Origin: Raillietiella orientalis
Lineage: Eukaryota
Assembly: GCA_036172245.1 (NCBI GenBank)
Contig: JAYWIR010000123.1
Location: forward strand, 62,001 to 100,993
Direction: 5' to 3'
DNA: 38,993 bases
In this document: positions 3,001 to 38,993 of the stretch, in pieces
Numbering within the stretch: position 1 is the stretch's first letter
Layout: each line of letters starts with the position of its first letter
Translations under genes and position numbers: made by a program
The notes under the pieces: model-generated
What the model was told of the DNA's origin: nothing
What the model saw: the letters and a program-made list of their open reading frames with translations, nothing else
Database searches by the model: none

Positions 3001-6000
3001 GATAAAATACACAGTTCAGGTGGTTCATCTGTACAGCTAAGTTCGTTCTCCTATATATCGCATGCAAGCTTTGCGTATGCGTGTAGTGCGGGTAAGAGGA
3101 GCCCCGTCTCAAAAATGCACCTCTGGATTTCTATCATCTTGTTCCTTGCCAGTCCCATTTCCTTTTTCAGAGTCTGCCATCTTGTTGCTTCTTGAGACAG
3201 GTCCAGTCGTGAAGATCCGTGTCCACGTCACCCTATTCTTTCCAAATCTCTTCTGTTTGGTTGCCCGTAAAGTATTCTATCCTGGAAATACTTCGCCTTT
3301 CTCCGTAGTAGAACACCCGGAGGTCATCTTGGATGTCTGGAGGCAGCTCACTCCTCCCGAACGTCGTTTTAAACGCTAAGGTATTGACGGAGTCGTTTCC
3401 GTAGCGATTGGGAACTTTCTGGAGAGCATCGGTGTCTCGATCGTCTTCACGTTTGACATGATGAAGGTGTTTCTTGTTCATCCTGGACCACGCGTTGTTC
3501 CTGTCGCTTTTTTACAATTCGCGTATGCTGTAAAATCCTTTCCCCCACCATCTCGATGTACTTAAGCACGCGATAGTGATGATGGTAGCCATCGCGTCTC
3601 CGTTGATCAAATTTTCTCAAGGTAAATCCAGGCCACTGTCACATCCAGCTTCTCGTGTTACTAGGAATGGGGAGCTGCCAGGGAATTACAAAGATGAATT
3701 TTAGCTTCCAGAGTTCCTTGCTTCGATACAGGAACTCTAGTTGGTGCTTCTGCTCCAGCGCGTATTTCTATCTCTGTGTCGCGTCGATAATGATCCATCC
3801 TCTTTCTCGTCTGATTTGAGTCGTAGTCAGGCTCTAGGCTTGTTCAACAACGAGAAAGCTCTGTGAGATGCTCATAGACAGTCCTCGCATTTAACTGTGG
3901 TGTTCAGGGCTAACTAGGTGGTGAATCCAACAACTCAAACGGAAAACTTCCTCTATTCCATTTTCTCAACTACTGAAAAGAGGAAAACAAATGTAAGGCT
4001 GTGTATATAAATGGAGTAAAAGAAGCCTCTTTAAAAGTGTTCTTACGAGTATGCTGAGCGGTCCAGTTCTCCCGATATCTTCAGCACCATCTCGTGATAG
4101 GTAGGTGTCGAACACCTGATTGTCGGTGAAGCCCAGCCATGGTCTTCATCGTCGTAACGGCTGTACTCGATGATGGTAGACTGACCCCACTTGAATTGTC
4201 CGACATTTAGCCTCCGGCTACCATTCGACCGGAGCAATGAGCAGCGGCATGGTTTCACTCAAGGGTTGTTTCAGATCTTTGTCAACCACTCGGTTCCGGT
4301 TTGCCAATTATCGTTTTATCCTCGGCGTAACATTTACCTTTAAAAAACATGGAAACTCCTTTATAATTGACGTTGCAAGACTTGCACATTCAAACGCAAG
4401 GAAAACGTGTTCACGGATGCAGGGAAAAAGGAAGAAGGAAAGTATCCAATTCTAATCCACACCATCAAGCAGTACGGCAAAGCTGCCATCGTTCAAGCTC
4501 TCATCCTGTAATCCTTAGGATCGTGCGATCCCAAGAAATAGAGCGCATTACGACTACTAGGAATTAAAGAGAACAACGGAAAAAACTTGAGGAAGCTATG
4601 TGTTTCCTGCTGCATTAGGGCAAGCAGGGATATTTAATGGAATCACGGACTGTTCATCCACCTGACGATGAGGGCGACCCCATGCTTTACATTATAGAGC
4701 GACCACAATCCCAAGACCAGTCATTACGAAGTAAACATCAGATCGTCAATCATATTCGAAATGCTGGAACAGCAGGCAGAGCCAGCGGGAACGTTTTTGC
4801 AGTTGTTACCAAATTTAATTCAATAAAAAAAGATTGTTATCCATTAGGTAACTTCAGTCAGATCACCACCTATTGGCATGAGTTTCTTCCTGTTTCCGTA
4901 AAGAATAAGGGTAATCGCTCTTCGCGGATGCACACTGTCAGTTGGTAGAATAGTCGGAGGAAGGCGTTAACAAATCGCTGTTAGTAAGGGTTGGGCACAC
5001 TATCAGAGCTCGCAGTCGCATTTTTGCAAAGTTCCACGGAAGGAGATAGAACTTCTACAGCGGAGATTTTTTCGCCGAGCAATCTCATTTGATGTTCCTT
5101 AATTCATCGGCTCAGGTGGCGAAAAAGGAAGAAAAATACACAAAAAAAACAAGAAAAACGCCTAGGGGACATTGTTTATGGGAAGGGAAATGATGACTGT
5201 GCGTCGAGGGGAGGCCTCTGCATCTGGTTCCGGATGCGAACAAGTGCTGGCGAAATTTTCCTTAGCCGGCGCCAACGGGAAGCCTTCTCCATGGAGATGA
5301 CCACCCAGTGGATGGCATTCCGACTGCTGTGGCCTCTTATCGACGCGTTCCACTTGTCCAATATTCCTTGTATGCAGCCGAGAACTGCAACATATGCGGC
5401 ACCTGGTAGGGAGTTCTGCATCAAGAGCCAAAGGAAAATGTTTTAGGGTCGCTCACCGCAACATTTATGGCCGAAGAGAGTCGATCCCACGTTCGGCGGA
5501 GGGCAACACATTCGATGAGTAAGTGGGGGAAGGTCTCCCTTTTCCCACACCCTGTACAATGAGCATCCAATCTCTCTAATGTCCAGTGAGACAGGCGTGC
5601 TCTGCTCAAAAGTGCCCAATGGAGCACAAGCAGCGCGGTCTTTTGCCAATCCAAAGGGAGGGTGCCACTGTCCCAAGACGCCGGGGGCCACTTCACCTCC
5701 TCCGGAGCCATGTCGAGCAGCTCGCCCCAGCACACAATTCCATTTGGCGGGACACTCGGGGCTGTAGCGTTCGCTAGTTCCCGGAACGTCCACGCCTTCA
5801 TTGGTTTTTTCCTGCCTCCGATGAGGCAGGACACTTCGAAACAAGCGTCCTCTTGGCTGTCCCTGACTTTTATAAGGAAGAGCAGGACGGGGACAAGGGG
5901 AGTGAATGCGGCCTACAAAAGCTTTTGTGGGTCTGATACGATCTCTCGGAGGGGCTGGCCAGCGTTCCTGCCTCGATGAAAGCGACGGAATTCCACCTCG

Positions 6001-6342
6001 CTGGAGCCGCTGATTCTTGCTCACGCGGAAACGGACTCTTGGAGCCAGATAGTCCAGTTTGCGGGGATACAGGAGATCTACGGGTTTCTCCTCACAAGGG
6101 CCACCAATTCCCGTAGCTGCGAATCACAATGGTACAATCTACCGTCGTTGGCTACGAGGACTGCAGTCAGTCCATCGCAGCCGGTTGCCCTATGAGCGAG
6201 GAGTCGTATGGGCGCACACCATGGTGCTGTCCAATATTTTGCCGCAAAGGCAAGTTTTCTTAGTTGGAGCTGAGGCTCCATGCGCTCCAACGTCAGGAGA
6301 CCAAGTCCACCGTCCCTCCGTGGAGCGCACATATCTTTTAGT

Positions 6343-6628
6343 TTGTCACCCGGATATGCCGGGCATTCATTAATCTAATCCTTACAGAATCAGTTAATAA
6401 ATTCTTTCAAAAGTTTGTTGTGGGGAAACACTTGGTTTTCCAAGCTTGGTTGACGTGTCGGTTGCCGGTGCATATGCCGGTTAGGTCCATTACCGAGGCG
6501 CAAACAACCGAGGGAAAACTAGAACAAACAGAAACAAAAAGAGAAATAACGGGGAGCAAAACAGTTATATAAGAGAGTGGAGGGGGCAGGGCAGGGATCA
6601 CTGGGCGCCTGGGTCGCTCCTCTACATC
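6343..6628 (-). mobile_element. 286-bp 5'-truncated LINE copy (last ORF2 codons plus complete 3' UTR) with 13-bp TSD
   Basis: CATATCTTTTAGT is duplicated at 6330-6342 and 6629-6641. Removing the insert restores RVRLKDMCAPRRDGG. Insert has TGATCCCTGCCC, a U-rich tract and the terminal CCCGGCATATCCGGGTGACAA. Confidence 0.92.
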
Positions 6629-7236
6629 CATATCTTTTAGTCGGACGCGGGACCTCTGGTTTCCCCAAAGGGCTTTCCTGATGAAACCCCTTCTCCGTGT
6701 CCTAATTTGGGGAGGGAGGCGCACACAAAAAGTAGAGGGTGAAGGAGAGGTCCACAAAGGCGTTCCACAGCGCGGCCCGTAACCACAAGTAGAACTTGCC
6801 GTCCCTGAACGGGCCGATCGCCAACTGCACCTTTGGAGATGGTCAGACCAGGCTTCTGCAGCGCAGAAGTCCCCAAACGGCACGCCAGGGTACTTGATGT
6901 ACCTGCCCGTGGGGATCCCCGAGCGGATCCAGTCCGGCCCTCCTGCCCGCGACGAGTCAAAAAAGATGATCGGCCATTTCGTCCTGTTCACCTCGAGGCA
7001 TGTCCCGCGGCGCAGCAACTCGACGGATTCTTCGAGCGCCGATGCCTGGGAGGACGCGGCTAGAAGGAGTAGAAGGTCAACCGCATAGGCCGACACGGCA
7101 GGCGTGCCGGAACACGAGCTGGGCACAGTTGCCAAAGTCTAACTGTATGATCTAAGAACAACTCAAAGTAGATGCTGAAGAGTAGGGGGCTGGGGCTGTC
7201 TCCCTGCCGGATGCCGCGACCAACAGCCACGTCGTG

Positions 7237-7330
7237 GTTCTTCGAGCTTGGCTGCAGTATCGCTGCAGCCACTGACATTTTATTGTGGAGTTTATTTTTA
7301 AATAAACGTCCTGGAGAAATCCGGGTTAAA
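7237..7330 (+). mobile_element. ~94-bp extreme 3' end of a LINE, inserted antisense into the RT of S1 at the RKSFD codons, with an adjacent host deletion
   Basis: Hairpin TGGCTGCAG-TATCG-CTGCAGCCA (7249-7271), AATAAA at 7301, then CCTGG-AGAAAT-CCGGG-TTAAA. Immediately followed by ATCGAAAGATTTACG (antisense of RKSFD). Host RT between KSFD and HDVAVGRG is missing. Confidence 0.8.
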
Positions 7331-7371
7331 ATCGAAAGATTTACGCATATCGACTGCGATCGCAAAGACTC

Positions 7372-8356
7372 ATTTTTTGGCATTCCTTGCCGACACCACG
7401 CGCACAGGTGCTTGTGGGCACACCTTCTGCGTGTGCCCCATTGTCCCGCATACCTGGTACTGTACGTTGGGGCACCTCCTATTGAGGTGTCCCGACGTGT
7501 TGCAGAAGCCACAGTATTTGAGCTTCCCCACGTACCAGAGGTCGACGCTTTCTCCGCCGACCACCAGTTTGTGGGGAAGGGTAGAGCCCTTCTGAACGGT
7601 TACACGGGCAGCCGTGAGTCCGCACTGAACTGTGATATAGTCCTCGAAAGGACTAGGCTTGGTCCATACTGCATGTACCGTGCCTTCTTTTCCCAATGCG
7701 GCGCGTAATTGTTCATTCCGCATCCGCGCGGTAACTCCTAAAAGGTGGACCACCATACTGTGGTCCTCCTTAATACGAAGGAGCCTGCGTGTCCCCAACA
7801 CCACGGGGCTTTTGAGAAGACGTTGGGCAGATCTGCGTGTTTGCAGATCACCTCTACGTACTGCCCCCCGCTAGGAATGGTCTTAGCGCAGAGCTCCTCC
7901 TCTTTAACATCGAGAGCGCGCATCCCCTTCGAATAGGCGCGCGCACTCTCAGAAGAATACAAATTTCCTACCTTGTAGAATAGTGATGGGTTATACCGCT
8001 CTTCTACATAGGCAGATAATTCCGCCGCGGCTACAGGCGATGCCGCCGACACGATGGCGCTCCACGCCCGCGCTGCAGCGGGGACCGGTTGTGTGGGGGC
8101 GGACGCCCCCACCTCCTTCGCCACTGAAGGCGACGTTGCCGCCGCCCCCTGGCACTCCAACTTTTCTAGAGGCGACGTTGCCGCCGCCACCTGGCACTCC
8201 ATTTCTTCAGGAGGCGACGTTGCCACCGCCCCCTGACACGCATTGGTGGTAGTGTCAGGCATTGCTGCCCAATCGACCACCACTACACACGAAGCCTACA
8301 CCTAGGGACAATTCCCGGCACGAGGAGCACCGAGAAAACACGTCCGCTCTAACCGA
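7372..8356 (-). mobile_element. Element G: 5' UTR plus ORF1 (frameshifted, ATG ~8262, truncated after the CCHC knuckles)
   Basis: MPDTTT..., ARAWSAIV, SGGQYVEVICK, LPHKLVVGGESVDLWYVGKLKYCGFCNTSGHLNRRC. 5' motif AGAGCGGACGTGTTTTCTCG at 8331-8350. 5' end abuts the RKAFD codons of element F. Confidence 0.9.
8128..8238 (-). repeat. 42-bp coding tandem repeat (~2.6 copies; CQGAxATSPxEEME) in the ORF1 N-terminus of G
   Basis: GGCGACGTTGCC recurs at 8129, 8171 and 8213. Confidence 0.9.
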
Positions 8357-10521
8357 CGTAAAGCCTTCGATTGCGTCTACTAGGAGCTCCTCCTGGAGAT
8401 CCTCGAACGCTTGGAATTTCCGGCCGTCTTCCTGGCATACCTGCGCTCCTGCTGGCGCTTCGCGTTCATCAATATTAATTTCAGCGGCCGGCACGTGTTG
8501 GACGTGCCGGTTGGTCGTGGCATCCGGCAGGGTGACAGCCTCAGCCCCCTGCTCTTCAGCATCTACTTTGAGGTGGTGCTGAGAGCATACAGGGAAACTT
8601 TAGCATCCCTAGCGAGCTCATGTCCTGACACGCCTGACGTGTCGACCTATGCCGGCGACCTGCTGCTTCTGCTGCCCGGATCCACTCCGGCATCGTAGCT
8701 TGAAGATTTTTTTGAGTTGCTGAACCGCAGGACGGGCTTCGAGGTAAGAAGGGCGAAGTCGTCCATCATTTATTCGGACTCGTCGCGGGCAGGACGATCG
8801 GACTGCATCCGCTTGGGGATCCCCAGGGACGGTTACTTAAAGAATCTGGGCGTTCCGTTGGGGGACTTCTGCGCTGCAGAAGCCTGGTCCGACCGTCTCC
8901 AAAAGGTGGAGTTGGCGATCGGCCTGTTCCGGAACGGCAAGTTTTACTTGCAGGAACGGGCCACGGTATGGAACGCTTTTGCGGCCAACTTTCTCCGCCC
9001 TTTACTTTTCGTATGCCCCATACCTCCACAAATTCGTAAAAGGACAAGGGGCCTCATTAGAAAAGCCTTCAAGGGCAATCGGAGGCTTCACGTACGTCTT
9101 GAAGATCTGTGCGCTCAGCGCAGGGACGGTGGTCTGGGTCTCCTGACGCAGGAGCGCATGGAGCGACAGCTGCAATTCCGTAAACTTGCCCTTGTGGCAA
9201 AGTACTGGACCGCACCCTGGTATGCACCTTCAAGACTTCTGGCTCACAGGGCATCCGGCTGCCATGGATTGACCTCAATCCTAGTAGCCAACGACCGCAG
9301 ACTTAATCACTGTGGTTTTCAGCTGCGGGACTTGGTTGCCCTGTTCAGAGACAATCCGTGGATCTCCTGCAACCCTGCTGACTGGACAACCTGGCTCCAG
9401 GAATCCGTTCCCGCATGTGCTAAAATCAACGGCCCCAGCGATGAGGACTTCTCCTGCCTCCGTAGAGGCAGGCACGCTCGTCAGCCACTGCTGGAGATCG
9501 TCAGCAACCCACGGAAGCTTCTGTGGGCCTCCTTTACCCCCTTTGCTCCAGTGCTGCCCTCCCTCAGGGAAGTTCGGAACAGCCAGCAGGAGGCATCGTG
9601 GGAAGTGTCCTGCCTCATCGGAGGTAGGAAAAAATTATTGAAGGCCCGGACGTCCCAGGAAGTAGCGGCCGCTAGTACTCCAATTGTCTTGCCGAATGGA
9701 CTTACACGCTGAGGCGCGCTGCTCGAAGTACCTCCGGAGGAGGTGAAGTGTCCTGCGGCGTCGTGAGATAACAACACCCTTCCCCTGCAGTGGCAGGAGA
9801 CGGCGTTGCTTCTGCTCCATTGGGGACTTTTAAGCAGAGCGCGCTTGTCTCACTGGACATCGGGGAGTGTGAATGCTAAGTGCACAGACTGTGGGGAAAG
9901 AGATACCTTTTCTCACTTGATCATTGAGTGCGTTCTTCTTTGCGATATGTGGGACCGACTCTCGTTGATCTTGAACATTCCGCGGGGCGACCCGAAGAAC
10001 ATCTTTCGACTCCTGATGCGGGACGCCTTGCCAGCTTCCAAGTGTGTAGCAGTGCTCTGTTGCATACGCGGAATACTGGAGAAGTGGACCGCGTCAAGGA
10101 GAGGACATGCCAATCTGAATGTCATCCACTGGGCAACCATCTCCTTGAAGAAGGCCTGCCGTTGGCGCCGACTTGGAAAACATTTACAGGCACTCGTCCG
10201 CATCCGTGACCGGATGCAGAGGCCTCCTCACGGCGTACCATGATTCCTTCCCTTCCCTCTTCCACCCGGAGAACATTACCCCCCAGGCATTTTCTTTTTT
10301 TGTTTGTTTACTTTTTTCCCGCCCCTTCGCTAGTGTGGAGGACCTTATCGGCCTTCGGGTCGGTAAGGACAAGTGCTTCAAGACAGTCGGGCCACGTTTC
10401 CAGACTGAAGAAAGGAAAAAAAAAAAAAAACACTTTATTTAACAAATTAAGACTTTATCATAGAATTTTTTCTAATTGCACAAATTTTAGTAATGCATGC
10501 CCCGACTCACCCGGGTGAAAA
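8357..10521 (+). mobile_element. Element F: ORF2 3' half (RT from RKAFD, zf-RVT), 3' UTR and terminus; degraded
   Basis: RKAFDCV, GRGIRQGDSLSP, TYAGDLLLLL, RRDGGLG, CTDCGERDTFSHLIIEC, stop at ~10243. Terminus CCCGACTCACCCGGGTGAAAA at 10501-10521. Confidence 0.9.
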
Positions 10522-10702
10522 ACCTGCGCTGGAGTAAAGTGCTCCTGGTCTTCTTCGTCCAGTAAGCAGGCATACTTGGATTGCTAGGCCTGCCTCTCTG
10601 CTCCAGCCTTGAACTCTGCCAGGCGACTGACGTTGGGCTTGTTAAAGAACGACGGGCGTGCGGATAGCTCCTGTCGTTCCTCACCCCATCCCCGAAGACC
10701 GG
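10522..10702 (-). pseudogene. Fragment M: EN-RT linker of an older minus-strand element, sandwiched between two antisense insertions
   Basis: Reverse complement translates (with a frameshift) as PVFGDGVRNDRSYPHARR..KPNVSRLAEFKAGAERQA*QS..LLDEEDQEHFTPAQ, homologous to GFGEGPRNERCYLQARR..RRLAEYRAGAERQAWQS in element A. Confidence 0.85.
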
Positions 10703-12719
10703 CCTCGAAAAACCTTTCACCACCGGCGAAATTCTTGCCGGTATCAGAAGGCTCAAGAGACGTAAGGCTCCAGGGGAGGACGGCTTGCCCGCGAAGTTCT
10801 TCCGGTGCTTCGCGGCAGAGCTGGCACTTCTGGTTCTCGAGTTGACAAGGCTAATCCGAGAAGAAGGCGATGTTCCCGCCACGTTTCGGTCAGCCAGGGT
10901 GAGGCTGATTTCGAAGGGAGCAGAACTCAGGAAACTTAGCAACTGGTGTCCGATCACGATTGTGAACACGGACGCCAAGTTGATTGCCGGGCTGTGACCG
11001 GGATAGGTGTCCAATTCCATGATTAGTCCGGAGAAGACCTACGCTGTTCCCGGGCGAAGTATGGAGGACAACCTCTTCTTCGCGAGCACATGGTGTCAAG
11101 TGCAGCGGACTGAGAAGGAAGTGAACGGGAAAATTTGCAACCCCAGTTTGGGACCGTCAGTAGGACAGGGAAGGGACATCCGGGCAGGGAAGAGGGCCCT
11201 AGTGATCGCGGTCGATCTCCAAAAGGCGTTCGACTGCGTGGACCAGGAGCTTCTGTTGGAGCTCCTGGGTCGTATGGGCCTCAAAACCACCTTGATAACC
11301 GACCTGCGCTCCTGCTGGCGACATGCGATTGTTACCGTCTCTTTTAGCAGTCAGAAGGTGTATAACTTGCTGGTGTGACGGGGCATAGGGCAGGGCGATA
11401 GTCTCAGTCCCCGGCTCTTTAGCACCTACTTTGAATTGGTGCTGAGAGCGTACAGGGCAACTGTGCCCCCTTGCTGAGCTCGTGCTTCGGCACGGCCGCC
11501 GTAGCAGCGTACGCCGACGATCTTCTACTCATGTTACCTATGTCCACCCCGGCGAAGGCGGTCGGGGATTTCTTCGATCTGCTTAGCCGCGGGACAGGAC
11601 TACAGGTGAACCAAGCGAAGACGACGGTGGTGCCAGTAGATGCGCCGTGGTCAGGTCAGCAGGATTGGGTCCGTTTGAAGATCCCCATGACGAGGTACGT
11701 CAAGTACCTTGGTGTGCCGTTTGCGGATTACTCCTCTGCGGAATAGTGGTCCGGCTGCCTCCGAAAAGTCGAGTCGGCAATCGGCCCGTTCCTGGAAGTC
11801 AAGTTTCACTTGCAGTTACGGGCCGTGGTTTGAAACTCCTTCACCGCCCCTATCCTCGGTCCCTTGCTTTTTGTTTGCCCCTTCCCCGTTGAAGTCAAGA
11901 AGAGGACGAAGGACTTCCTCTATATTGCCCTTTTGGGCAATGTGAATCCTTGAGTCCCTTTCAGGGACTTATGCGCTCCGCTTCGGGATGGTGGTCTTGG
12001 CCTCCTAAAGCTGGAGCGCTTGGAGGTACAGCTGCGATGGCGCACCCTCGCTATCGCAGCGAAGTCGTGGAGCACCTCTTCCTGCGTTCCGGCCTGCCTA
12101 CTCGCCAGGCGTGTGTGGAGGTACGAAGAACTCGCATCTTTTCTTCTGTTCCCTGGCCGGAAGATCAGAAGATGCGGCCTACTGCTCGGGCGCATGGGAA
12201 CCCTGGCAAAGAACAGCTGGATGGTTTGCAGCCCTGCCAAATTCTCCGCCTGGCTGGAGGAAACCGCTGGCACCTGGGCTGCTATTAACCTGCGGAGTGA
12301 TGAATCTTGCAAGCGCCTGCGCTGCAGCATATACGCTTGCCGCACTCTGGAAGAAATACTGGAGTTTCCCGCGAGCAACACTTGGGCCGATACGACACCC
12401 CTTGCTACGGCGATGCCCTTGCTGACGAAGGCGCTTCACGGCAGCCGGATGCGAAGGTTGCAATTCTCCTGCCGAATCGCAGGCAGGGAGAAGTTTATAA
12501 GCGGCTGGAAAACAGGAGAACTGGCGGACGCCACGACCACGAGCGTCCAGCCGCGTGGTATACTGAGAAGGGGCGAGCTGCTCGCCATCCCCAGGGATGA
12601 GGCGAAGTGGCCCCCGGCATGGAATGAATACAGGATCCTGACCCTTAAGTGGCAAGAGTCGATGCTGCTGCTGTTGCACTGGGGTTTACCCTGCAACGTG
12701 CGTCGCTTCCACTGGACGC
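10703..12719 (+). mobile_element. Element I: 5'-truncated B-family ORF2 (RT to start of zf region), degraded
   Basis: EKPFTTGEILAGI, KAPGEDG, DLQKAFD, AYADD, MSTPAKAVGDFFDLLSRGTG and GELADATTTSVQPRG closely match elements D and C. Confidence 0.9.
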
Positions 12720-25724: not shown

Positions 25725-25741
25725 TGGAGATTCCGGAGCGT

Positions 25742-25760: not shown

Positions 25761-25823
25761 GTTGCTCCTGAGCTCCATTTCCGATGGTGCTTGTGCGTGG
25801 TGTGGGTGGAGGATTACGCAGCA

Positions 25824-30400: not shown

Positions 30401-31061
30401 ACGTCGCGGCACAATGGGAGGTTACTGTCAAGATCGCCAGCAGGGCAAAGAAGATCGGGGATTGGAGAACGGGTCAGCTCAATAACGCTGCGACCCCGAG
30501 GACCACCCCAAATATACTGTTGCGCTGAAGAGAGCTACTAGATGTTCCAGAGGAACATCTCGAGTGGCCTTCGGTGCTCATAGACTCGCGCACCCTCCCC
30601 ATGAAGTGGCAACAGTCGGCACTGATGGTGTTGCATTGGGGGCTTCCTTGCAACGCCCGCCGACAGCACTGGACTTGGGGGGGTGTCAACCCTAATTGTG
30701 TCAGGTGCGGGGAGAGGGAATACCTCACCACCTGTTAGTGGATTGTGTTGCCCTCCGTCCCTTGTGGGAACGCTTTGCCGCAGCCCTGGGGATCCCCGGA
30801 GGCAACTCCAGAGACGCTTTGCGCCCCCACTTCGTCCGTGACGCCCTGCCTCCAGAGGCCTCGCTTGCAGCCCTGGGCTGCCTACGCGAGATCGTCGTGG
30901 CATGGAGCAAAGCGACGGGAGGATCCAGCGACAGGGATGCCAACGTGTATGTTGCCCGTTTCTACTGGATGTCGACGCGATGGCCCCATCTGGAACCACA
31001 CAAGCAGAAACAGCTTGCCGGCATCCTCCAGAGGATGACGGACCCTCCCAGCAGACTGTGA
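27482..31061 (+). pseudogene. Element A ORF2 (APE endonuclease, RT, zf-RVT), frameshifted near 28730, ~30340 and ~30720
   Basis: ATG overlaps the ORF1 stop (TAATG). WNVNG, LLQEIH, NLYAP, GDFN, IDHVY, SDH; DLRKEFD, GIRQGDSLSP, AYADD; CVRCGERE..HHLLVDC. Confidence 0.93.
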
Positions 31062-31244
31062 TCCCTTCCCGCTCCCTCCCTGATTTTTGTTTTTTTTTTG
31101 TTTTCTTTTTGTTTCGTTCCCCCTCCCCTCTGCTGCCGAGGTCGACCGCGCCGGTCTGCGCACCAGTAGCCCGGCAAGCTATATCTTTCCAGGGCGTGGC
31201 TGGACTACTGGTCCAGTCACAGATTGTATAGGTTTATTCGTGAG

Positions 31245-31274
31245 AACAAACGTCCCGGCGCACCCAGGTTTCAA
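31245..31274 (+). other. Conserved 3'-terminal module: poly(A)-signal-like hexamer + CCCGG-N5/6-CCGGG hairpin + ~6-nt tail (9 copies in the window)
   Basis: Copies at 6343-6372(-), 7301-7330(+), 10491-10521(+), 12933-12962(-), 16162-16191(-), 21315-21344(+), 22726-22756(-), 31245-31274(+), 34063-34092(-). Two of them directly abut verified TSDs. Confidence 0.88.
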
Positions 31275-32077
31275 TGGAGATTCCGGAGCGTGACGCCTCT
31301 CAGGTAATCGCGAAGGTGTTCACTCGCACCTGAGATTAGCGTCCAGTCCCCCAACAGACACCAATCCCTGGATGGCGGTCCTTTGTCGCGAGGACGCATC
31401 TCGAAAATTAGCCGGGAATGGTCCGACAACGTCGACACAACCCTCCCCCGTTTGCCGACGCGTGAACACAGGACAGCGTCGAGGAAGACGTGGTCGATGC
31501 TGTGGACCATTCCCCTCTCACCCGTGAACAAGTTGCGCGCACGCATGGCGGCGCACAACTCGTTCATCGCGTTCACTTGTGTTTCCGGCTCACCTGTTAG
31601 CAGGCGGAGATTGAAATCTCCCGCTATCAGGTGAGCTTTTCGCACATTGGTATCCGCCAGCCAGTCGCGCTTCAGGGTTTCCAGCAGCCTGGTGCGGTCG
31701 CGGTACCCCTGTTTGCCGCTGGGGCCATACACGTTTGTGACGATTAGGTCGATCGAGTCGGACCAGCTGAGAATCAGCTGACCGATCCGACCGTCGTCAT
31801 CAAACCGCACGCCCTTTACGGCAGCGTCGATGACCGGCTTCACGAAGAACGCGACCCCGCAGGTGTTGCGGAGGCCGCATCGCCAATACAACCGACCTCC
31901 CGCGATCGTCACGATTTCCTGGGCGTCTGCCGCGGTGATCACGTGGATCTCCTGCAGCAGCGCCAGGTCGAGCTCACGCAGGGTGTCGGCCGTATCTCGA
32001 CTGTTGCCGTTGTCGCGCAGCCCGTTGACGTTCCAAATGGCCGCGCGAATCCCACGGCGACTGGCGAGCCCAGGTGT
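31275..32077 (-). pseudogene. D ORF2 N-terminal APE endonuclease (open frame, no AUG start), separated from its RT by element A
   Basis: TPGLASRRGIRAAIWNVNGLRD..LLQEIH..TNVYGPS..IAGDFN..SIDHVFL..SDHSR. Confidence 0.92.
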
Positions 32078-33950
32078 TAGTCCTGGAAAAACGGCGATGC
32101 GGCGTCCGCCACCTGCTGGGGCGGGTCGCTAGGTGGAGGGGGAGGGGATACAGGTACTGAAGGCACCTGTTCCTCCTCCTCCATCGGTGCCGGCGGGTCG
32201 ACCGGATCACCCGCAGGTGAAGTCGCGCCTACCTGTTCGCCCTCCTCCATGGGTTCGGGCTGCTCAGGTTTCGCGAGTGCAGGGAGGACTTCACCCCCCT
32301 GCTCACCCTCCTCCATGGGGGTGGTCGAGTCGACGGCTTCCGGGCGTGGGTATTCCCCCTCCGGGATTCCCACGCTGCCGCTTCCTTCCGGTTTCTACTC
32401 CTCGCTGGTGGAGTGGAGGCGCCTCCTGGGTTTCTGGGACTTGCGTCCCGCCTTCCTGGGGGGTGCCTCCGAGGAGGAGGATCCGCTTCCGGCCCCCAGG
32501 TCGCACTCACCTGCGGGTGCCTTTTTCGTCGGAGCCGACCTGCGTACGCCCTTGCGCGACGGGGTTTCGCGCTCGGCGAGCGTTGCTGGGAGCTCCTCCG
32601 CCGCTTTCTCGAAGGCCGCGTCTTCGCCAGCGGCGACCGTTGCCGCGGGCTGCTTTGCGACCTTATCGAGCGCTGCGTCATCGCTGACGGCGAACGTTGC
32701 CGCGGGCTCATCCGCGACATTATCGAGCGCGGCGTTCTGGCTGTCAGCGCTCGAGTCTCGCGTCTCACCCTCTAAACGTAGAATGGGCTGGTCCACGCGA
32801 GTATTCATCGCGTCCGCATCAGCTGTTCCGCGAACATTGCCGCGGGCGGTCTCGGCAGGAACGGCTAAGCGTTCCAGTGCCACCGAGCATTCGCGGAGTG
32901 GTTTTTTTGAAAGCGGCGCGGCTTTTTTCTTGTTGCCGGCAGTATTCTTCTCCGACTTTTCTTCTGGCATCACTTTCCTTTTTTTCTCTTTTCTGGCCTG
33001 AACCAGCTACCAACCCTCCTCCATTTTCGCGTTCACGGGAGCTCTTTCCTCCGACGTCTGTACGGGAGGAAGGGAGGCTGGCAGTTGGGAACGGCCATTT
33101 TCGCGAGCTGGTCTTTCTACCAGCTTCCCACGTTTTCCCTGCGCCTTTTTGGCGGCAGGGGAACCGAGGTGGGGCGCTTGGGTCACACGCGCCGAACGTG
33201 ACCCTTTTCGCCGCATAGGTGGCACACAATGTTCGGGCACCTTTTTCGTAGATGCCCTACTGCATTGCAGTAGCCACAAAATTGACGTTTCCCCACGTAC
33301 CAGAGGTCCACCGCTTCTTGGCAGACCTCCAGCTTCTGGGGAATTGCACCACCCACTTTTAGTGTGATACGCGCCGCAGCTTGACCTCCGAAAAGGCTAT
33401 TGTAGCTTCGGAAAATCGTGGACTTCGGCCACAACGCGTGCACTTCTCCCTGCTTTTGTATCTGTTCTCGAACCGCTGACCTAGTCATGCGACTGGAGAT
33501 CCCAGTGAGATGGACCGCCACAGAGCGGTCCATCGTCCCCGGCAAGATCTTGCGACCATCAACGATCAGCGGGTTGGTGATCAGGCGTCGGGCCAAGGTG
33601 ATATCCTTGCATACCACCTCGACCCGCTGCCCGCCGCTGAGGAAGCAGAGGCCGACAAGATCTTTTTCGAAGATATTGGCGTTCTGCAGCGCATTCGTAA
33701 GGGCGCGTGCAGTTCGTCCATCGAAAAGGTTCCCTACCTTGTAGACTAGCGAGGGTTTATACCCCGCTTTCTTGTAGGCTTCCATCTCGGCCATGGCTTC
33801 AACGCTAGGCGCTGCCACTATGGCGCTCCATGACCTTGGCGTCGCCGGGGACGATTCCGGGGCGGATGCCCCTGATCCAGTAGGCTGTGGAGGTGAACAA
33901 GCATCTTCCACGCCTACTTCCATCGCGGTATCCTCTGGCGACGCTGCCAT
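32077..33950 (-). pseudogene. D ORF1 (near-identical to B ORF1, with a stop/frameshift near 33180 and a stop at 32395)
   Basis: ORFs 33183-33974, 32395-32973 and 32077-32373 together tile the B ORF1 protein. Confidence 0.92.
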
Positions 33951-34062
33951 CGGACACCGACGATGTGCACGCACAAATCACTCAAGAAGAAAAAACACTC
34001 GCTTTGCCACGCAGGCGGAGCGCAGGAAAAGCACGTCCGCTCTCCACAGCGGGGATTCGGCG

Positions 34063-37001
34063 ATGCCACCCGGATACGCCGGGACGTTTATTAAAAACAT
34101 TTCAACGGTCAATACAGAACGTGGTACAAGGCCCCACTAACGGCCACGCAATACGGGAACTGCCGGGACACCGGGACGCAGCTCGGTGTGGCTCTCCTCA
34201 GCAGCAGAGGGGGATGGGGGAGAACACAAAAATAAAATAAAAGAGAAAAGCAAACCACAAAAAAAAGTTTGGAGGGCCGGGAAGGGATCACAGAAAACTG
34301 CTGGGAGGGCCCATCCTTTGCAGGATGCTTTCTAGTTCCTTTTTTATCCTTCCTAGATGGGTCCATCGGGTAGCTCTCTGCAGGAAGCGAGAAGCATACT
34401 CGATGACATCCCTGACGATGCAGTCTTCATCTTCGGCATCACTCCAGGCCGCCACTATACCACGCATGCAGCAAAGTGCTGCCAGGGCTGCAGCTGGACT
34501 GAGGGCGTCCCGCACGAAGACAAGACTGAAGATACATTCACCATTGCCAGCATCCGGTATCCCAAGTGCCGTTTGAAGACGTTCCCAAAGAATCTGGACG
34601 GCAGGGCATTCAACTAAGAGGTGGGGGAGCGACTCCCGCTCCCCACACCTGGCACACGCAGGATTTACTCTTCCCCGCGTCCAGTGGAAGCGGCGCGCGT
34701 TGCAGGGTAGACCCCAATGCAGACACAGAAGCGCCGATTCTTGCCACTTCAGGGAAGAATCCTGAATCCAAGTAGAACCGGGGGCCACTTCAGGTCGTCC
34801 AATCGAATGCAGAGCAGCTCGCCCCATCTTCTTAATCCACGCGGCTGGATACTAGGGGTCGTTGCATCTGTCAACTCTTCCATGGTCCTGCCGCTCATCG
34901 TCTTCTCTCTGCCTGCGATACGGCAGCAGACTTGCCACCTTAGCTTCCGGCTTTCGTGAAGCGCCCTTTAGAGGTAGGGCATCGCCGTAACAAGGGGTGG
35001 GCCTTTCGCTTACGTGCAACTCGGAGGAAATTCAAGTATTACACGGAGAGTTTGTCGGGCGTAAAAGCCGTCTCGCAGGCAGTTCATCTGGTCTTCGCAC
35101 CTCTCGTTCAGCTTGGCCCAGGTGCCAGCAGTCTCTTCCAGCCAAGCGAAGGAGTTGTTAGGACCACAAACCATCCATTCGTTCTCCTTTGCCAGGGTTG
35201 CCATGCGGCCGAGGAGTAGACCGCATCTTCGAATCATCCGGATAGGGTACAGAAGAAACGATGCGAGTCCTTCGCAGCGGGACACATGGCTGGCCAGGAG
35301 ACCGGCCGGAATGCACCAAGCGGTGCTCCACATCTTCGCTAAGATGGCGAGGATCCGCCATCGCAGCTGGATTTTTACGCGCTCCAGCGTCAGGATGCTG
35401 AGACCGCCGTCCCGACGCGGAGCGCACAAGTCCTTCAAAGGGGATCGGGGCCTTCCCTTGCCCCAAAGAGCTATGCGGAGGAGGTCCTTCGTTCGCTTTT
35501 TCGATTCCACGGGGGCGGGGCAAACAAAAAGCAAGGGGCGGAGTATGGGGGCCGCGAAGGCGTTCCAAACCGCGGCCCGTTCCGCCAAGTGGAACTTGCC
35601 TTCCAGGTACGGCCCTATCGCCGTCTCGACTTTTTGGAGGCAGCTGGACCACGCTTTTGCAGGGGAGAAGTCCCCCAACGGCACACCGAGGTACTTGATG
35701 CACCTCATTGTGGGGATCCCCAGACGCACCCAGTCCTGCTGCCTTGCCCACGTCGCTCCAACTGGCAACACTGACGACTTCGCCCTGTTAACCTGTAATC
35801 CGGCCCCACGGCTAAGCAGGTCGAAGAAATCTCCGACCGCCTTCGCCGGGGTGGACATACGTAAGAGGAGCAGAAAATCGTCGGCATACGCCGCTACGGC
35901 TGGCGTGCCGGGGCACGAGCTCGGCATGGGGCCAAAGTCACCCTGTACGCTCTCAGCACCAACTCAGCGTAGGTGCTAAAAAGCAGGGGGCTGAGGCTGT
36001 CGCCCGGCCTTATGCCCCGCCGCACCGGGACGTCATACACCTTTTGTCCACTGAAAGTAATTGAGATTATCCCGTTCCGCCAGCAAGAGCGCAGGTAAGC
36101 ATCAAGGAGGGTGAGAAGCCCATGCGACCCAGGATCTCCAAGAGGAGTTCCTGGTCAACACAGTCGAATGCCTTATCAAGGTCGACTGCGATCGCTATGG
36201 CCCCCTTTCCCGCATGATGGTCCCTACATTGTCCCACTGGCGGCTCCAAAGTAGGGTTGCAAATTTTCCCTTTCCCTTTTTATTACTCCGCTGCGCGTGC
36301 ATCCATGTGCTCGCGAAGAGGAGGTTGTCCTCCATACTTCGCCCGGGAACAGCGTATGTCTGCTCCGGGCTAATTATGGAATTGGACACCTTCCCCGATC
36401 GCGACGCCCACAGCCTGGCAATCAACTTGGCGTCCGTGTTCACAATCGTGATCCGACGGCAGTTGCAAAGTTTCCTGAGGTCTCCTCCCTTCGGGAGGAG
36501 CCTCACCCTGGCTGACCGAAACGAGGCGGGAACATCGCCTTCGTCTCGGATTCGCCTTGTCAACCAGAGCACCAGGGGGGCCAGCTCTTCCGCTAAACTC
36601 TGAAAGAACTCCGCGGGAAAGCCGTCCTCCCCTGGCGCCTTACGCCTCTTGAACCTTTTGAGACCGGCGAGAATTTCACCGGTCGTGAAAGGCTCATCGA
36701 GGCTTTCTCTCTCCTCCTCCCCTATCGCCACGGAACCACTCATGAGCAATCGCCGCGAGGCGTCTTGTTCGGGTGGAGTTTTGGCGTAAATGGAGGAATA
36801 AAAACATCGTACGAGATTCCGTAAAGCAGACGGGGAAGAACGTTCCCGACCCAGGTCATCCAGCATGCTGGCTGACCCGGATTGCCAGGCTTTTCGCTCG
36901 GCTCCGGAGCGGTATTCGGCCAGGCGACGGACATTGGGGTTCCTCTCGTGACCACGCGCGTGCAAATACGCGCGTTCGTTGCGAGCCCCTACGCCGAATC
37001 C
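34063..37001 (-). mobile_element. Element C (B family): ORF2 from the GFG linker to zf-RVT plus 3' UTR and terminus; head-to-tail with D, interrupted by B
   Basis: GFGVGARNERAYL, KAPGEDG, DLDKAFD, AYADDF, IKYLGVP, CARCGERESLPHLLVEC. 3' UTR similar to D. Terminus AATAAACGTCCCGGCGTATCCGGGTGGCAT. Confidence 0.92.
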
Positions 37002-37103
37002 CCGCTGTGGAGAGCGGACGTGCTTTTCCTGCGCTCCGCCTGCGTGGCAAAGCGAGTGTTTTTTCTTCTTGAGTGATATGTGCGTGCACATCGTCGTTTT
37101 CCG

Positions 37104-38981
37104 ATGGCATCGTTGCCAGAGGACAATGCGATGGAAGTAGGCGTGATAAAGGCTTGTTCGTCCCCACAGCCTACTGGATCAGGGGCATCCGCCCCGGAAT
37201 CGTCCCCGGCGACGCCGAGGTCCTGGAGCGCCATGGTGGCCGCGCCTAGCGTGGACGCCATGGCCGAGATGGAAGCCTACAAGAAAGCGGGGTATAAACC
37301 CTCGCTAGTCTACAAGGTAGGCAACATTTTCGATGGGCGAACTGCACGCGCCTTTACGAAGGCGCTGCAGGACGCCAATATTTTTGAAAAAGATCTCGAC
37401 GGCCTCTGCGTCCTCAGCGGCGGGCAGCGGGTCGAGGTGGTATGCAAGGATATCACCTTGGCCCGACACCTGATCACCGACCCGCTGATCGGTGATGGTC
37501 GGAAGATCTTACCGATAACGATGGACCGCTCGGTGGTGGTCCATCTCACTGGGATCTCAAGTCGCATGACGAGGTCAGCGGTTCGAGAACAGCTACAAGA
37601 GCACGGAGAAGTGCACGCGTTGTGGCCGAAGTCCACGATTTTCCAAGGCTACAATAGCCTTTTCGGAGGTCAAGCTGCGGCGCGTATCACAGTAAAAGAG
37701 GGTGGTGCGCTTCCCCACAAGCTGGAGGTCTGCCAAGAAGCGATGGACCTCTGGTACGTGGGAAAACGCCAATTTTGTGGCTACTGCAATGCAGTAGGGC
37801 ATCTACGAAAAAGGTGCCCGAACATTGTGTGCCACCTATGCGGCGAAAAGGGTCACGTTCGGCGCGTGTGCCCCAAGCGCCCCACATCGGTGCCCCCTGC
37901 CGCCAAAAAGGCGCAGGGAAAACGTGGAAAGCTGGTAGAAAGACCAGCTCGCGAAAATGGCCGTTCCCAACTGCCAGCCTCCCTTCCTCCCGTACATACG
38001 TCGGAGGAAATAGCTCCCATGGACGAGGGAATGGAGGAGGGTTATCAGCTGGTTCAGGCCAGAAAAGAGAAAAAAAACAAAGTGATGATAGAAGAAAATT
38101 CGGAGAAGAAAACTGCCGGCAACAAGAAGAAAAAAGCCGCGCCGCTTTCAAAAAAAAAACTCCGCGAATGCTCGGTGGCACTGGAACGCTTAGCCGTTCC
38201 TGCCGAGTCCGCCCGCGGCAATGTTCGCGAAACAGCTGATGCGGACGCGATGAAAACTCGCGTGGACGAGCCCAATCTACGTGTAGAGGGTGAGACGCGA
38301 GACTCGCGCGCCGACAGCCAGGACGCCGCGCTCGATAAAGTCGCGGAGGAGCCCGCGGCAACGTTCGCCGTCAACGATGACGCCGCGCTCGATAAGGTCG
38401 CGGAGCAGCCCGCGGCAACGGTCGCCGCTGGCGAAGACGCGGCCTTCGAGAAAGCGGCGGAGGAGCTCGCAGCAACGCTCGCCGGGCGCGAAACCCCTTC
38501 GCGCAAGGGCGTACGCAGGTCGGCTCCGACGAAGAAGGCCCCCGCAGGTGAGTGCGACCTGGGGGCCGGAAGCGGATCCTCCTCCTCGGAGGCACCCCCC
38601 AGGAAGTCGGGACGCAATTCCCAGAAACCCAGGAGGCGCCTCCCCTCCACCAGCGAGGAGGAGAAACCGGAAGGAAGCGGCAGCGTGGGAATCCCGGAGG
38701 GGGAATACCCACGCCCGGAAGCCGTCGAGTCGGCCACCCCCATGGAAGAGGGAGAGCAGGGGGGTGAAGTCCTCCCTACAGTAGCGAAACCTAAGCAGCC
38801 CGAACCCATGGAGGAAGGCGACCAGGTAGGCGCGACTCCACGTGCGGGTGATCCGGCCGAAGCGCCGGCACCGATGGAGGAGGAGGAAAAGGTGCCTTCA
38901 GTACCTGTCCCTCCTCCCCCTCCACCTAGCGTCCCGTCCCAGCAGGTGGCGGACGCCGCATCGCCGTTTTCCCTGGACTAA
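37104..38981 (+). CDS. Element B ORF1, intact (~625 aa from ATG 37104), gag-like with 2x CCHC
   Basis: Uninterrupted frame. SGGQRVEVVCK, LPHKL..LWYVGKRQFCGYCNAVGHLRKRC..CHLCGEKGHVRRVC. Confidence 0.9.
   Translation: MASLPEDNAMEVGVIKACSSPQPTGSGASAPESSPATPRSWSAMVAAPSVDAMAEMEAYKKAGYKPSLVYKVGNIFDGRTARAFTKALQDANIFEKDLDGLCVLSGGQRVEVVCKDITLARHLITDPLIGDGRKILPITMDRSVVVHLTGISSRMTRSAVREQLQEHGEVHALWPKSTIFQGYNSLFGGQAAARITVKEGGALPHKLEVCQEAMDLWYVGKRQFCGYCNAVGHLRKRCPNIVCHLCGEKGHVRRVCPKRPTSVPPAAKKAQGKRGKLVERPARENGRSQLPASLPPVHTSEEIAPMDEGMEEGYQLVQARKEKKNKVMIEENSEKKTAGNKKKKAAPLSKKKLRECSVALERLAVPAESARGNVRETADADAMKTRVDEPNLRVEGETRDSRADSQDAALDKVAEEPAATFAVNDDAALDKVAEQPAATVAAGEDAAFEKAAEELAATLAGRETPSRKGVRRSAPTKKAPAGECDLGAGSGSSSSEAPPRKSGRNSQKPRRRLPSTSEEEKPEGSGSVGIPEGEYPRPEAVESATPMEEGEQGGEVLPTVAKPKQPEPMEEGDQVGATPRAGDPAEAPAPMEEEEKVPSVPVPPPPPPSVPSQQVADAASPFSLD
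38322..38492 (+). repeat. 57-bp coding tandem repeat x3 (DAALDKVAEEPAATFAVND-type) in B ORF1; also present in D at ~32565-32735
   Basis: GACGCCGCGCTCGATAA..GTCGCGGAG..CCCGCGGCAACG recurs with a 57-nt period. Confidence 0.9.
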
Positions 38982-38993
38982 CACCTGGGCTCG

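What the first reader, a model, noticed from the sequence alone, without database searches (positions are those of the whole stretch)
5115..38993. Russian-doll architecture with strong antisense bias and an edge-to-interior decay gradient; candidate centromeric or heterochromatic LINE island
Seen: inferred nesting is M<-I/I2<-J<-H<-K<-L, M<-F<-G, E<-D<-A and C<-B. Eleven insertion events are antisense to their host, two are sense (6343-6628; the L 3' end at 21344), and C sits in D's leader. For 11 of 13, the one-sided binomial P is about 0.011, though antisense junctions are easier to spot. I see no non-LINE DNA in ~34 kb. Copies at the left edge are most decayed, while intact ORF1s (A, B) lie to the right. 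Established: Zepp-like L1-clade clusters are associated with centromeres in some green algae. Inference: the island grows from within, and alternating orientation would produce abundant dsRNA.
Basis: partly seen in the sequence, partly recalled or inferred. Interest (0 to 1): 0.72.

Follow-up and report, generated by a model that had tools for sequence, protein, structure and literature searches.

The report
Nested LINE island with site homing
About 34 kb of this window consists only of LINE retrotransposons inserted into one another, mostly in opposite orientation, and one family landed four times at the same 10-base site inside other copies, which may show how such centromere-like LINE islands build themselves.

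Summary
The observation largely holds. Window 5115-38993 is LINE sequence only: 91% matches LINE proteins, 95% with DNA repeats, and the gaps are 3' UTRs. I resolve 17 elements. I infer 16 insertion events, 13 antisense and 3 sense to the host (one-sided P=0.011). Three events have target-site duplications inside the window (17/17, 12/12 and 9/10 bp). An independent run holds a read-through of the empty A site.

New here: insertion points are not random. Four inserts of one family (D, C, B, J) sit at the same nucleotide of the host's EN-RT linker (GGATTCGGCG^AGGG), all antisense. The chance of this is about 5e-6. Two inserts of a second family share a site just upstream of the RT 'KAFD' motif. 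Once same-site events are collapsed, the antisense excess is no longer significant (9 of 12, P=0.07). Site-preferential homing therefore probably accounts for much of the bias.

The elements lack poly(A) tails and end in a conserved CCCGG-N-CCGGGT motif. Position 5115 is a truncation, not a true island edge. The decay gradient is modest (4.0-4.7 against 2.3 lesions per kb).

The organism, Zepp-clade membership, centromere status and dsRNA production could not be tested. This is a new variant of a known kind, the Zepp-like nested LINE cluster.

The parts
1..5114 (.). Non-LINE flank, 42% GC, with no repeat elsewhere in the window
   Evidence: Composition. No LINE protein hit or internal repeat hit. 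No Rfam match.
5115..7233 (-). M: a 5'-truncated LINE running from the RT to the 3' UTR, interrupted by N. Its 3' UTR is cut at 5114/5115, about 195 nt short of a LINE end.
   Evidence: tblastn. 74-77% identical to G. Homology ends at 5114 and at 7233.
6343..6629 (-). N: a 287-bp 3'-terminal LINE fragment inserted in the sense orientation in M. Its TSD is ATATCTTTTAGT (6331-6342 and 6630-6641).
7234..7331 (+). P: a 98-nt 3' tail of a + strand LINE carrying the terminal motif. Positions 7332-7372 are unassigned.
7373..8349 (-). F: the 5' UTR and ORF1 part of a family-2 LINE. Its 5' end abuts G just upstream of G's RT 'KAFD' codons.
   Evidence: 78% identical to f10.
8350..10522 (+). G: a LINE from RT motif A to the 3' end (family 1). 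Its 3' end abuts X.
10523..10700 (-). X: a 178-bp sliver of an older LINE (EN-RT linker). It is the inferred common host of G on its left and J on its right. Its right end is at the homing site (CCCCGAAGACC on the + strand).
   Evidence: 68-73% identical to D, C and A, against 79% between D and C.
10701..12718 (+). J: a 5'-truncated family-3 LINE inserted antisense at X's homing site
   Evidence: 78-79% identical to D and C. Boundary.
12719..12932 (+). f8: the EN-start fragment of a family-3 LINE, on the same strand as J. The junction has the microhomology GGACGC at 12714-12719.
   Evidence: 81% identical to D 31892-32107
12933..15021 (-). f9: a LINE from its 3' end back to RT motif A. Its 3' end abuts f8.
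15022..16160 (+). f10: the 5' end and ORF1 of a family-2 LINE. Its 5' end abuts f9 at the same RT position as F abuts G.
16161..18862 (-). f11: a LINE from its 3' end back to the EN-RT linker. Its 3' end abuts f10.
18863..22725 (+). E: a LINE from its 5' region through ORF1 and EN, ending exactly at GGTTTCGGCG. It is interrupted by L.
20006..21344 (+). L: a 5'-truncated LINE 3' part inserted in the sense orientation in E. The 5' boundary is uncertain (20006-20030) and no TSD was found.
22726..34052 (-). D: a full-length family-3 LINE split by A. Its TSD copies are 22716-22725 (GGTTTCGGCG) and 34053-34062 (GGATTCGGCG). Its own homing site at 25645-25654 is intact and unoccupied.
25742..31274 (+). 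A: a full-length 5,533-bp LINE with an open ORF1 and an ORF2 read in several frames. Its 17-bp TSD lies at 25725-25741 and 31275-31291.
34063..37001 (-). C: a family-3 LINE from its 3' end back to the homing site. Its 3' end abuts D's 5' TSD copy, so C and D lie head to tail in E's site.
37002..38993 (+). B: the 5' end, a complete ORF1 and the first bases of ORF2 of a family-3 LINE, 93.5% identical to D. It is inserted antisense at C's homing site and runs off the window.

Best explanation
Window 5115-38993 is a fragment of a LINE-only island. It was built by successive target-primed reverse transcription of L1-like LINEs into earlier LINE copies. These elements have a CCHC ORF1, an APE endonuclease, an RT and a zf-RVT-like C-terminus. 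They have no poly(A) tail and end in a conserved CCCGG-N-CCGGGT motif.

Insertion is not random. Family 3 (D, C, B, J) homes to one site in the EN-RT linker of other copies. The inferred first nick is on the host's sense strand after GGATTCGGCG^AGGG, so the new copy lies antisense, with a 10-bp TSD that regenerates the site. Family 2 (F, f10) uses a site just upstream of the RT 'KAFD' codons, also antisense.

Every new full-length copy brings a fresh site and the TSD renews the old one. The next insertion therefore tends to go into the newest copy or beside it. This would give the deep chain of alternating orientation (X<-J<-f8<-f9<-f10<-f11<-E<-D<-A and E<-C<-B) and the head-to-tail pair C-D.

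Shown: the element map, the TSDs and the shared junction positions. Inferred: which strand is nicked first, that the endonuclease (or RNA-target pairing) gives the specificity, and host-insert polarity for events with only one junction in the window.
For: - LINE domains and the element map.
- Insertions with both ends in the window: A, 17/17 TSD; N, 12/12; D, 9/10.
- One contig of the independent run X1 reads D's left flank through position 25741. It then continues with 13 letters identical to 31292-31304, which is the uninterrupted A target.
- Nine predicted 3' junctions carry the same terminal motif.
- Same-site events in family 3: E|D 3' end at 22725/22726, D-TSD|C 3' end at 34062/34063, C|B 5' end at 37001/37002, and X|J at 10700/10701. 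All four fall at the same alignment column of the hosts. The flanks beyond the 10 bp differ, and J is 5'-truncated, so these are separate events.
- Under uniform insertion, 4 or more of 16 events within 5 nt of a 5.5-kb host has P about 5e-6.
- Of the 5 elements whose site region is visible (E, C, X, D, A), 3 are occupied, E twice.
- F|G and f10|f9 junctions align without a gap through flank and element, although G and f9 are only 67% identical.
- The outer members of the right chain carry more stops and frameshifts than the inner ones.
Against: - The sample is small and comes from one window.
- 12 of 16 events show only one junction.
- Two family-3-like inserts are not at the site: A lies about 90 nt upstream at a different sequence, and f8 lies in J's C-terminal region in the sense orientation.
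- D's own perfect site (25645-25654) and a 1-mismatch copy at 29454-29463 are unoccupied.
- The other 3' flanks share no motif.
- The F/f10 coincidence alone is weak if all pairs are counted: 0.44 pairs within 10 nt are expected among 16 events.
- In the left nest the inner element M is not less decayed than its inferred hosts G and F.
- The left halves that the model predicts are absent, because the island is cut at 5115.
- The 3' hairpin has no compensatory changes.
- A metagenome scan for the junction pattern found no further examples: 54 loci, none LINE-related.
Confidence: 0.65

Rival explanations
1. The LINEs accumulated randomly in a gene-poor or heterochromatic region. Insertions land anywhere in older copies. 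The antisense excess and the shared breakpoints are chance, or arise because antisense junctions are easier to see.
For: After same-site, same-family events are collapsed, the antisense excess is 9 of 12, P=0.07. Most 3' flanks share no motif. A and f8 did not use the site.
Against: Four junctions at one nucleotide position has P about 5e-6 under uniform insertion. All four involve the same family and the same orientation. Sense insertions are detectable as jumps in element coordinates on the protein map, and only three were found, so ascertainment bias is limited.
Confidence: 0.15
2. The pattern comes from rearrangement rather than insertion. Inversions, deletions, segmental or inverted duplications, or misassembly joined LINE pieces together.
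For: - The 5114/5115 boundary is not a LINE end.
- The J|f8 junction has a 6-bp microhomology. It could be a deletion across a head-to-tail pair.
- L has no TSD.
- Run X1 shows 1-bp indels relative to the window, for example an extra C after 30725, so the assembly may carry small errors.
Against: - There are perfect or near-perfect TSDs for A, N and D.
- X1 holds the empty-site read-through.
- Nine junctions coincide exactly with the conserved LINE 3' terminus.
- Adjacent inverted pieces cover different element coordinates and belong to families only 64-79% identical, so they are not inverted duplicates.
- A shared 10 bp is too short to cause chimeric assembly.
Confidence: 0.1
3. Twin priming explains the X|J pair. 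In this reading the inverted X sliver and J are two parts of one insertion event with a 5' inversion.
For: X (element coordinates about 2735-2920, inverted) lies directly 5' of J (from about 3026). That is the layout a 5' inversion would give.
Against: X is only 68-73% identical to D, C and A over a region where D and C are 79% alike, whereas J is 78-79% identical to D and C. X and J are therefore not from one RNA. X's left end is set by the 3' terminus of G. X's right end is at the same site as the C|B and E|D junctions.
Confidence: 0.03

Closest known systems
Zepp (Coccomyxa subellipsoidea C-169) and ZeppL-1_cRei (Chlamydomonas) centromeric L1 LINE clusters
   Same: Both are clusters of L1-type LINEs nested in one another with almost no other DNA. 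Both are more GC-rich than their surroundings: about 58-60% against 42% here, and 61% against 53% in C-169 (passage of PMC3446292). Insertion that 'targets existing copies' is already proposed for Zepp (passage of PMC8226300).
   Different: Zepp clusters are described as tandem arrays made mostly of 5'-truncated 3' ends. Here orientation alternates (13 of 16 events antisense), six elements keep their 5' ends, and there is no poly(A) tail. Several families only 64-79% identical take part. Clade membership, one cluster per chromosome and CENH3 binding are untested. The organism is unknown. I found no statement on insertion orientation or same-site reuse in the passages returned, or in the listing of search. 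Higashiyama 1997 and Yamamoto 2003 are not held.
Sequence-specific APE-type LINEs (R1 in 28S rDNA; TRAS/SART in telomeric repeats; Tx1-clade elements in snRNA or other repeats)
   Same: They insert repeatedly at one nucleotide position of a multicopy target, in a fixed orientation and with a short TSD. They form head-to-tail pairs when a site is reused. R1Bm EN specificity: abstract start of PMC1919474 in the search listing. The other examples are recalled.
   Different: The target here lies inside the ORF2 of LINEs of the same superfamily. Specificity is a preference (4 of 6 family-3-like inserts), not absolute. No biochemical data exist.
Stringent-type L1-clade LINEs of plants with a conserved 3' RNA structure
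   Same: They are L1-like elements with a conserved 3'-terminal sequence and a possible hairpin instead of reliance on poly(A). Source: abstract start of PMC3472496 in the search listing.
   Different: The relationship was not tested. The hairpin here has only wobble changes and no compensatory pairs.

Membership tests
L1-clade non-LTR retrotransposon | ORF2 with an N-terminal APE-type endonuclease followed by a reverse transcriptase | tested here: met
   Exo_endo_phos scores 52.8, 44.0 and 26.7 bits (cut-off 24.5). RVT_1 scores up to 68.7 bits (cut-off 29.6). Both lie on the same elements in that order.
L1-clade non-LTR retrotransposon | C-terminal zinc-binding domain (zf-RVT / CCHC) after the RT | tested here: inconclusive
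   zf-RVT was hit in 4 ORFs. The best score is 27.0 bits against a cut-off of 27.5.
L1-clade non-LTR retrotransposon | Phylogenetic placement of the RT within L1 | not tested
   No labelled reference set was available. Nearest named hits are 25-38% identical: plant L1-like RTs, Closterium and animal assemblies.
L1-clade non-LTR retrotransposon | 3' poly(A) tail (relaxed-type L1) | tested here: not met
   Nine 3' ends finish in 0-5 A after CCGGGT-N3-6. None has a poly(A) tract.
Zepp / ZeppL centromeric LINE cluster | LINE-only cluster formed by insertion into existing copies | tested here: met
Zepp / ZeppL centromeric LINE cluster | Tandem arrays made mostly of 5'-truncated 3' ends (as described in PMC8226300) | tested here: not met
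   13 of 16 events are antisense. Six elements have 5' ends (A, B, D, F, f10, E). There is only one head-to-tail pair, C-D.
Zepp / ZeppL centromeric LINE cluster | RT/EN monophyletic with Zepp | not tested
   No Zepp sequence was obtainable from the tools.
Zepp / ZeppL centromeric LINE cluster | One cluster per chromosome; CENH3 occupancy | not testable with these tools
   No genome is held, and there are no ChIP data.
Sequence-specific LINE | Independent copies at the same nucleotide of the target, in a fixed orientation | tested here: met
   D, C, B and J lie at GGATTCGGCG^AGGG, 4 of 4 antisense. P is about 5e-6.
Sequence-specific LINE | All, or nearly all, copies of the family at that target | tested here: not met
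   4 of 6 family-3-like inserts are at the site. A and f8 are elsewhere.
Sequence-specific LINE | The endonuclease cleaves the target sequence specifically in vitro | not testable with these tools
   This needs a biochemical assay.

The most novel reading that the evidence does not exclude
A lineage of stem-loop-terminated L1-like LINEs has evolved to home, in antisense orientation, to a 10-bp site inside the EN-RT linker coding sequence of its own relatives. A second family would do the same at RT motif A. Each insertion both regenerates the site through the TSD and imports a fresh one. The island is therefore self-seeding and grows from its youngest member outward. This would be a concrete mechanism for how LINE-only, Zepp-like (possibly centromeric) islands arise and stay confined to one locus.
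Probability: 0.3. Interest if true: 0.8.

Novelty: new variant of a known kind. Interest (0 to 1): 0.55.

Why it matters
Nested L1 clusters are the proposed or ChIP-supported centromeric DNA of several green algae. The passages I could read say only that new copies 'target existing copies'. If a LINE family recognises a defined sequence inside other LINE copies, three features get a testable molecular cause: confinement to one locus, deep nesting and alternating orientation. The test would be endonuclease cleavage of GGATTCGGCG^AGGG. Alternating orientation would also predict convergent transcripts, a possible source of silencing RNAs. On the evidence of this single window the finding is a well-documented example and a hypothesis, not a demonstration.

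Tried and rejected
- Whole-genome search: no genome is held.
- Earlier-findings look-ups: nothing returned.
- Metagenome scan for the junction pattern GGWTTCGGCGNTGNCACCCGG: 54 loci. None had a tblastn or blastn match to the window's LINEs, so all are chance matches.
- Taxon assignment. The RT search gave one JGI metagenome protein at 67-68% identity and otherwise hits of 38% or less. Names for 20 top representatives were uninformative. The ORF1 search gave one JGI protein at 42%.
- Sequencing runs: one DNA run (X1) holds 28% of the sampled words. No RNA holder was listed, so expression and dsRNA could not be addressed. X1 consists of short contigs. No bridging of the site-specific junctions could be read from the tables shown.
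- Rfam: no match.
- 3' hairpin covariation: 6 pairs, 0 compensatory.
- Same site for G-in-X and E-in-f11: the breakpoints lie within about 20 nt of each other but not at the same position, and E's 5' boundary is uncertain.
- Same site for f11-in-f10 and L-in-E: about 140-165 nt apart.
- TSD for L: none found.
- CpG depletion as a methylation or age signal: observed/expected CpG is 0.68-1.17 with only a slight trend.
- Twin priming for X/J: rejected.
- Papers not held: Higashiyama 1997 and Yamamoto 2003.

Full report
**What is there.** The first 5.1 kb of the window is 40-46% GC. The rest is 53-64% GC.

From 5115 to the end, LINE queries cover 30,963 of 33,879 bases by tblastn. The queries were ORF1, endonuclease, RT and C-terminal region taken from the window, plus the metagenome protein P0001. 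With intra-window DNA repeats the cover is 32,219 bases. The eight uncovered gaps of 40 nt or more are 3' UTRs or the ORF1-ORF2 spacer. Window 1-5114 has no such hit.

Pfam found LINE domains in 13 of 40 long ORFs:
- Exo_endo_phos, three ORFs above the cut-off.
- RVT_1, four ORFs above the cut-off.
- zf-CCHC in ORF1, one ORF above the cut-off.
- zf-RVT, best score 27.0 bits against a cut-off of 27.5.
- One further weak hit (CIMR) lies on the antisense of A and is below its cut-off.

The copies are 64-94% identical to each other. They fall into at least four families:
- Family 1: M and G.
- Family 2: F and f10.
- Family 3: J, D, C, B and f8, with A at 71-74%.
- A fourth pair: f9 and f11.

There is no tRNA-like or other Rfam match. 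Tandem repeats occur only inside ORF1s and one 3' UTR.

**Element map.** I placed every fragment on the coordinates of the full-length copy A and refined the boundaries by pairwise and multiple alignment.

| Element | Window coordinates | Strand |
|---|---|---|
| M | 5115-7233 | - |
| N (inside M) | 6343-6629 | - |
| P | 7234-7331 | + |
| F | 7373-8349 | - |
| G | 8350-10522 | + |
| X | 10523-10700 | - |
| J | 10701-12718 | + |
| f8 | 12719-12932 | + |
| f9 | 12933-15021 | - |
| f10 | 15022-16160 | + |
| f11 | 16161-18862 | - |
| E | 18863-22725 | + |
| L (inside E) | about 20006-21344 | + |
| D | 22726-34052 | - |
| A (inside D) | 25742-31274 | + |
| C | 34063-37001 | - |
| B | 37002-38993 | + |

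**Evidence that these are insertions.**
- A has a perfect 17-bp TSD, N a perfect 12-bp TSD, and D a 10-bp TSD with one mismatch.
- One contig of the independent DNA run X1 matches D up to 25741, the end of the left TSD copy. It then continues with 13 letters identical to 31292-31304. An uninterrupted version of A's target therefore exists, either as an empty allele or as a paralogue.
- Nine fragment ends (N, P, G, f9, f11, L, D, A, C) carry the same terminal sequence...A(A/T)TAAACG-CCCGG-N4-6-CCGGGT-N3-6, ending in 0-5 A with no poly(A) tract.
- A loose regex for this motif hit 7 places. Five were at junctions and two (14951, 16429) were not. The other four ends were read directly from the sequence.
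- The motif can form a 5-6 bp hairpin. Across the nine copies only wobble changes occur, and none of the 6 pairs shows a compensatory change.
- Full-length 5' ends (A, B, D, F) begin with GAGCGGACGTG. f10 has the GACGTG part only.

**Nesting and orientation.** An element that shows its intact 3' or 5' terminus against a broken neighbour is read as the insert. On that rule the events are:
- N in M: sense.
- M in P, P in F, F in G, G in X: antisense.
- J in X: antisense.
- f8 in J: sense.
- f9 in f8, f10 in f9, f11 in f10, E in f11: antisense.
- L in E: sense.
- D in E, C in E, A in D, B in C: antisense.

That makes 13 antisense and 3 sense events, one-sided P=0.0106.

Only A, N, D and L have both ends in the window. 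The other 12 events rest on one junction.

Sense insertions would show up as backward jumps in element coordinates on one strand. The map shows only these three, so ascertainment bias is limited.

The sliver X is the common host of a left nest (G, F, P, M, N) and a right nest (J to A and B). M is not the outer host.

**Same-site insertion (the main new point).** In host-sense orientation, four junctions fall at the same column of the EN-RT linker:
- E ends ...GGTTTCGGCG and is followed by D's 3' terminus.
- The TSD copy GGATTCGGCG at D's 5' end is followed by C's 3' terminus.
- C begins with GGATTCGGCG(T)AGGGG, directly against B's 5' end.
- X begins with its diverged version of the site, directly against the 5'-truncated J.

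All four inserts are family 3 and all four are antisense to the host. The flanks beyond the 10 bp differ and the hosts belong to different families, so these are separate events and not copies of one junction.

Under uniform insertion into a 5.5-kb host, 4 or more of 16 events within 5 nt has P about 5e-6. A simulation gave 5e-6.

C and D lie head to tail in E's site, as expected when a TSD regenerates the target. Which of the two came first is open.

Of the five elements whose site region is visible, three are occupied (E twice, C, X). D's perfect site and A's 2-mismatch site are free.

Exceptions:
- A lies about 90 nt upstream of the site at an unrelated sequence.
- f8 lies in J's C-terminal region, in the sense orientation, with a 6-bp microhomology.
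- A 1-mismatch copy of the motif at 29454-29463 is unoccupied.
- The window has 52 places with 2 or fewer mismatches to the motif.

This is therefore a preference within a sequence context, not an absolute rule.

A second coincidence involves family 2. The 5' ends of F and f10 (78% identical) abut G and f9 at the same position, within about 5 nt, just upstream of the RT 'KAFD' codons. The hosts are only 67% identical. For a given pair P is about 0.004. Among all 120 pairs, 0.44 such coincidences are expected, so this observation is supportive only because the two inserts are the same family.

Nine of 16 insertion points lie in element coordinates 2650-3540 (P=3e-4). After collapsing the same-site events it is 5 of 12 (P=0.03).

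**Consequence for the antisense bias.** If the four family-3 events and the two family-2 events each count once, the tally is 9 antisense of 12, P=0.07. The bias is therefore largely explained by a few families that reuse fixed sites in a fixed orientation.

**Inferred mechanism.** D's cDNA start (TTGTCACCC...) directly follows ...TTCGGCG on the host's sense strand. The first nick would therefore be on that strand after GGATTCGGCG, and the second nick 10 nt upstream on the other strand.

The data cannot say what gives the specificity. It could be the APE endonuclease, as in R1 (abstract start of PMC1919474 seen in a search listing). It could also be pairing of read-through RNA with the target.

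**Decay gradient.** Stops plus frame switches per kb of tblastn-aligned sequence:

| Group | Lesions per kb |
|---|---|
| M, F, G, X | 3.98 |
| J, f9, f10, f11 | 4.65 |
| E, D, C | 2.34 |

The first two groups together differ from the third with P=0.014. Along the right chain Spearman rho is -0.68, P=0.06.

A, B and L were themselves used as queries, so their low values are biased. In the left nest the inner element M (5.2 per kb) is not younger-looking than G (3.2) or F (3.0).

A's ORF2 is read in several frames. At one of those frame changes an X1 contig has an extra C after 30725 that would keep the frame. Some lesions may therefore be private to this copy or be assembly errors.

Both A's ORF1 (552 aa) and B's ORF1 (625 aa) are open.

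**The left boundary.** M's similarity to G stops at 5114. That is about 195 nt before where a LINE 3' terminus would be, and no terminal motif follows. The junction with the AT-rich DNA is thus not a retrotransposition end.

Either another sequence was inserted into M's 3' UTR, or the island was broken there. The predicted left halves of P, F, G and X are missing from the window.

**Comparison with the literature.**
- Coccomyxa C-169 has Zepp clusters of nested elements, one per chromosome, that are more GC-rich than the genome (abstract and passages of PMC3446292).
- Chlamydomonas ZeppL-1_cRei clusters mark the putative centromeres. [quoted passage not shown]
- CENH3 is reported to associate with ZeppL (title and abstract start; passages).
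- Chlorella centromeres are rich in LINE/L1 (passages of PMC11005252).

None of the passages returned for 'orientation', 'antisense', 'nested' or 'target site' describes an orientation bias or same-site reuse. Nothing in the listing of search does either. The original Zepp papers are not held, so I cannot exclude that they describe it.

This window therefore fits the known kind but differs in three ways: alternating orientation, no poly(A) tail, and several diverged families.

**What stays open.**
- The organism is unknown. The nearest relatives are unnamed metagenome proteins (67-68% for the RT, 42% for ORF1). Named hits are 38% identical or less.
- The conserved AATAAA about 20 nt before the 3' ends and the 42% GC flank do not point clearly to a chlorophyte. 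The expected chlorophyte signal is recalled, not tested.
- Centromere status, cluster number, methylation and dsRNA could not be addressed.

Noticed in passing
window 38322-38484, 32574-32735, 8128-8239: There are in-frame tandem repeats inside ORF1: 57 bp x 2.8-2.9 copies in B and D, and 42 bp x 2.7 copies in F.
   Followed up: no
window 30725 (A), also 26151, 34259, 38385: Run X1 contigs differ from the window by 1-bp indels. The extra C after 30725 would keep A's C-terminal reading frame continuous. Either a more intact A-type copy exists elsewhere, or the window has small assembly errors.
   Followed up: partly
window 31617 (D, EN region): One X1 contig matches D up to 31617 and then continues with TTATCACCCGG, the reverse complement of a LINE 3' terminus. 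A D-like copy in that sample therefore carries a further insertion in the sense orientation that is absent here.
   Followed up: no
3' ends at 6343, 7331, 12933, 21344, 22726, 34063 and others: An AATAAA-like hexamer lies about 20 nt before the terminus in most copies, yet no poly(A) tail is present. All 3' UTRs begin with a pyrimidine-rich tract.
   Followed up: partly
window 1-1000: The flank is strongly T-rich on the + strand (AT skew -0.39). It has no long ORF, no repeat and no RNA family match. Its nature (intergenic DNA or another mobile element) is unknown.
   Followed up: partly
window 7332-7372: A 41-nt stretch between P's 3' terminus and the point where F's similarity to f10 begins matches nothing else in the window.
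   Followed up: no
window 20029: An X1 contig matches E up to 20029 and then diverges from both L and the E sequence that resumes at 21345. L's insertion may therefore have deleted some of E.
   Followed up: no
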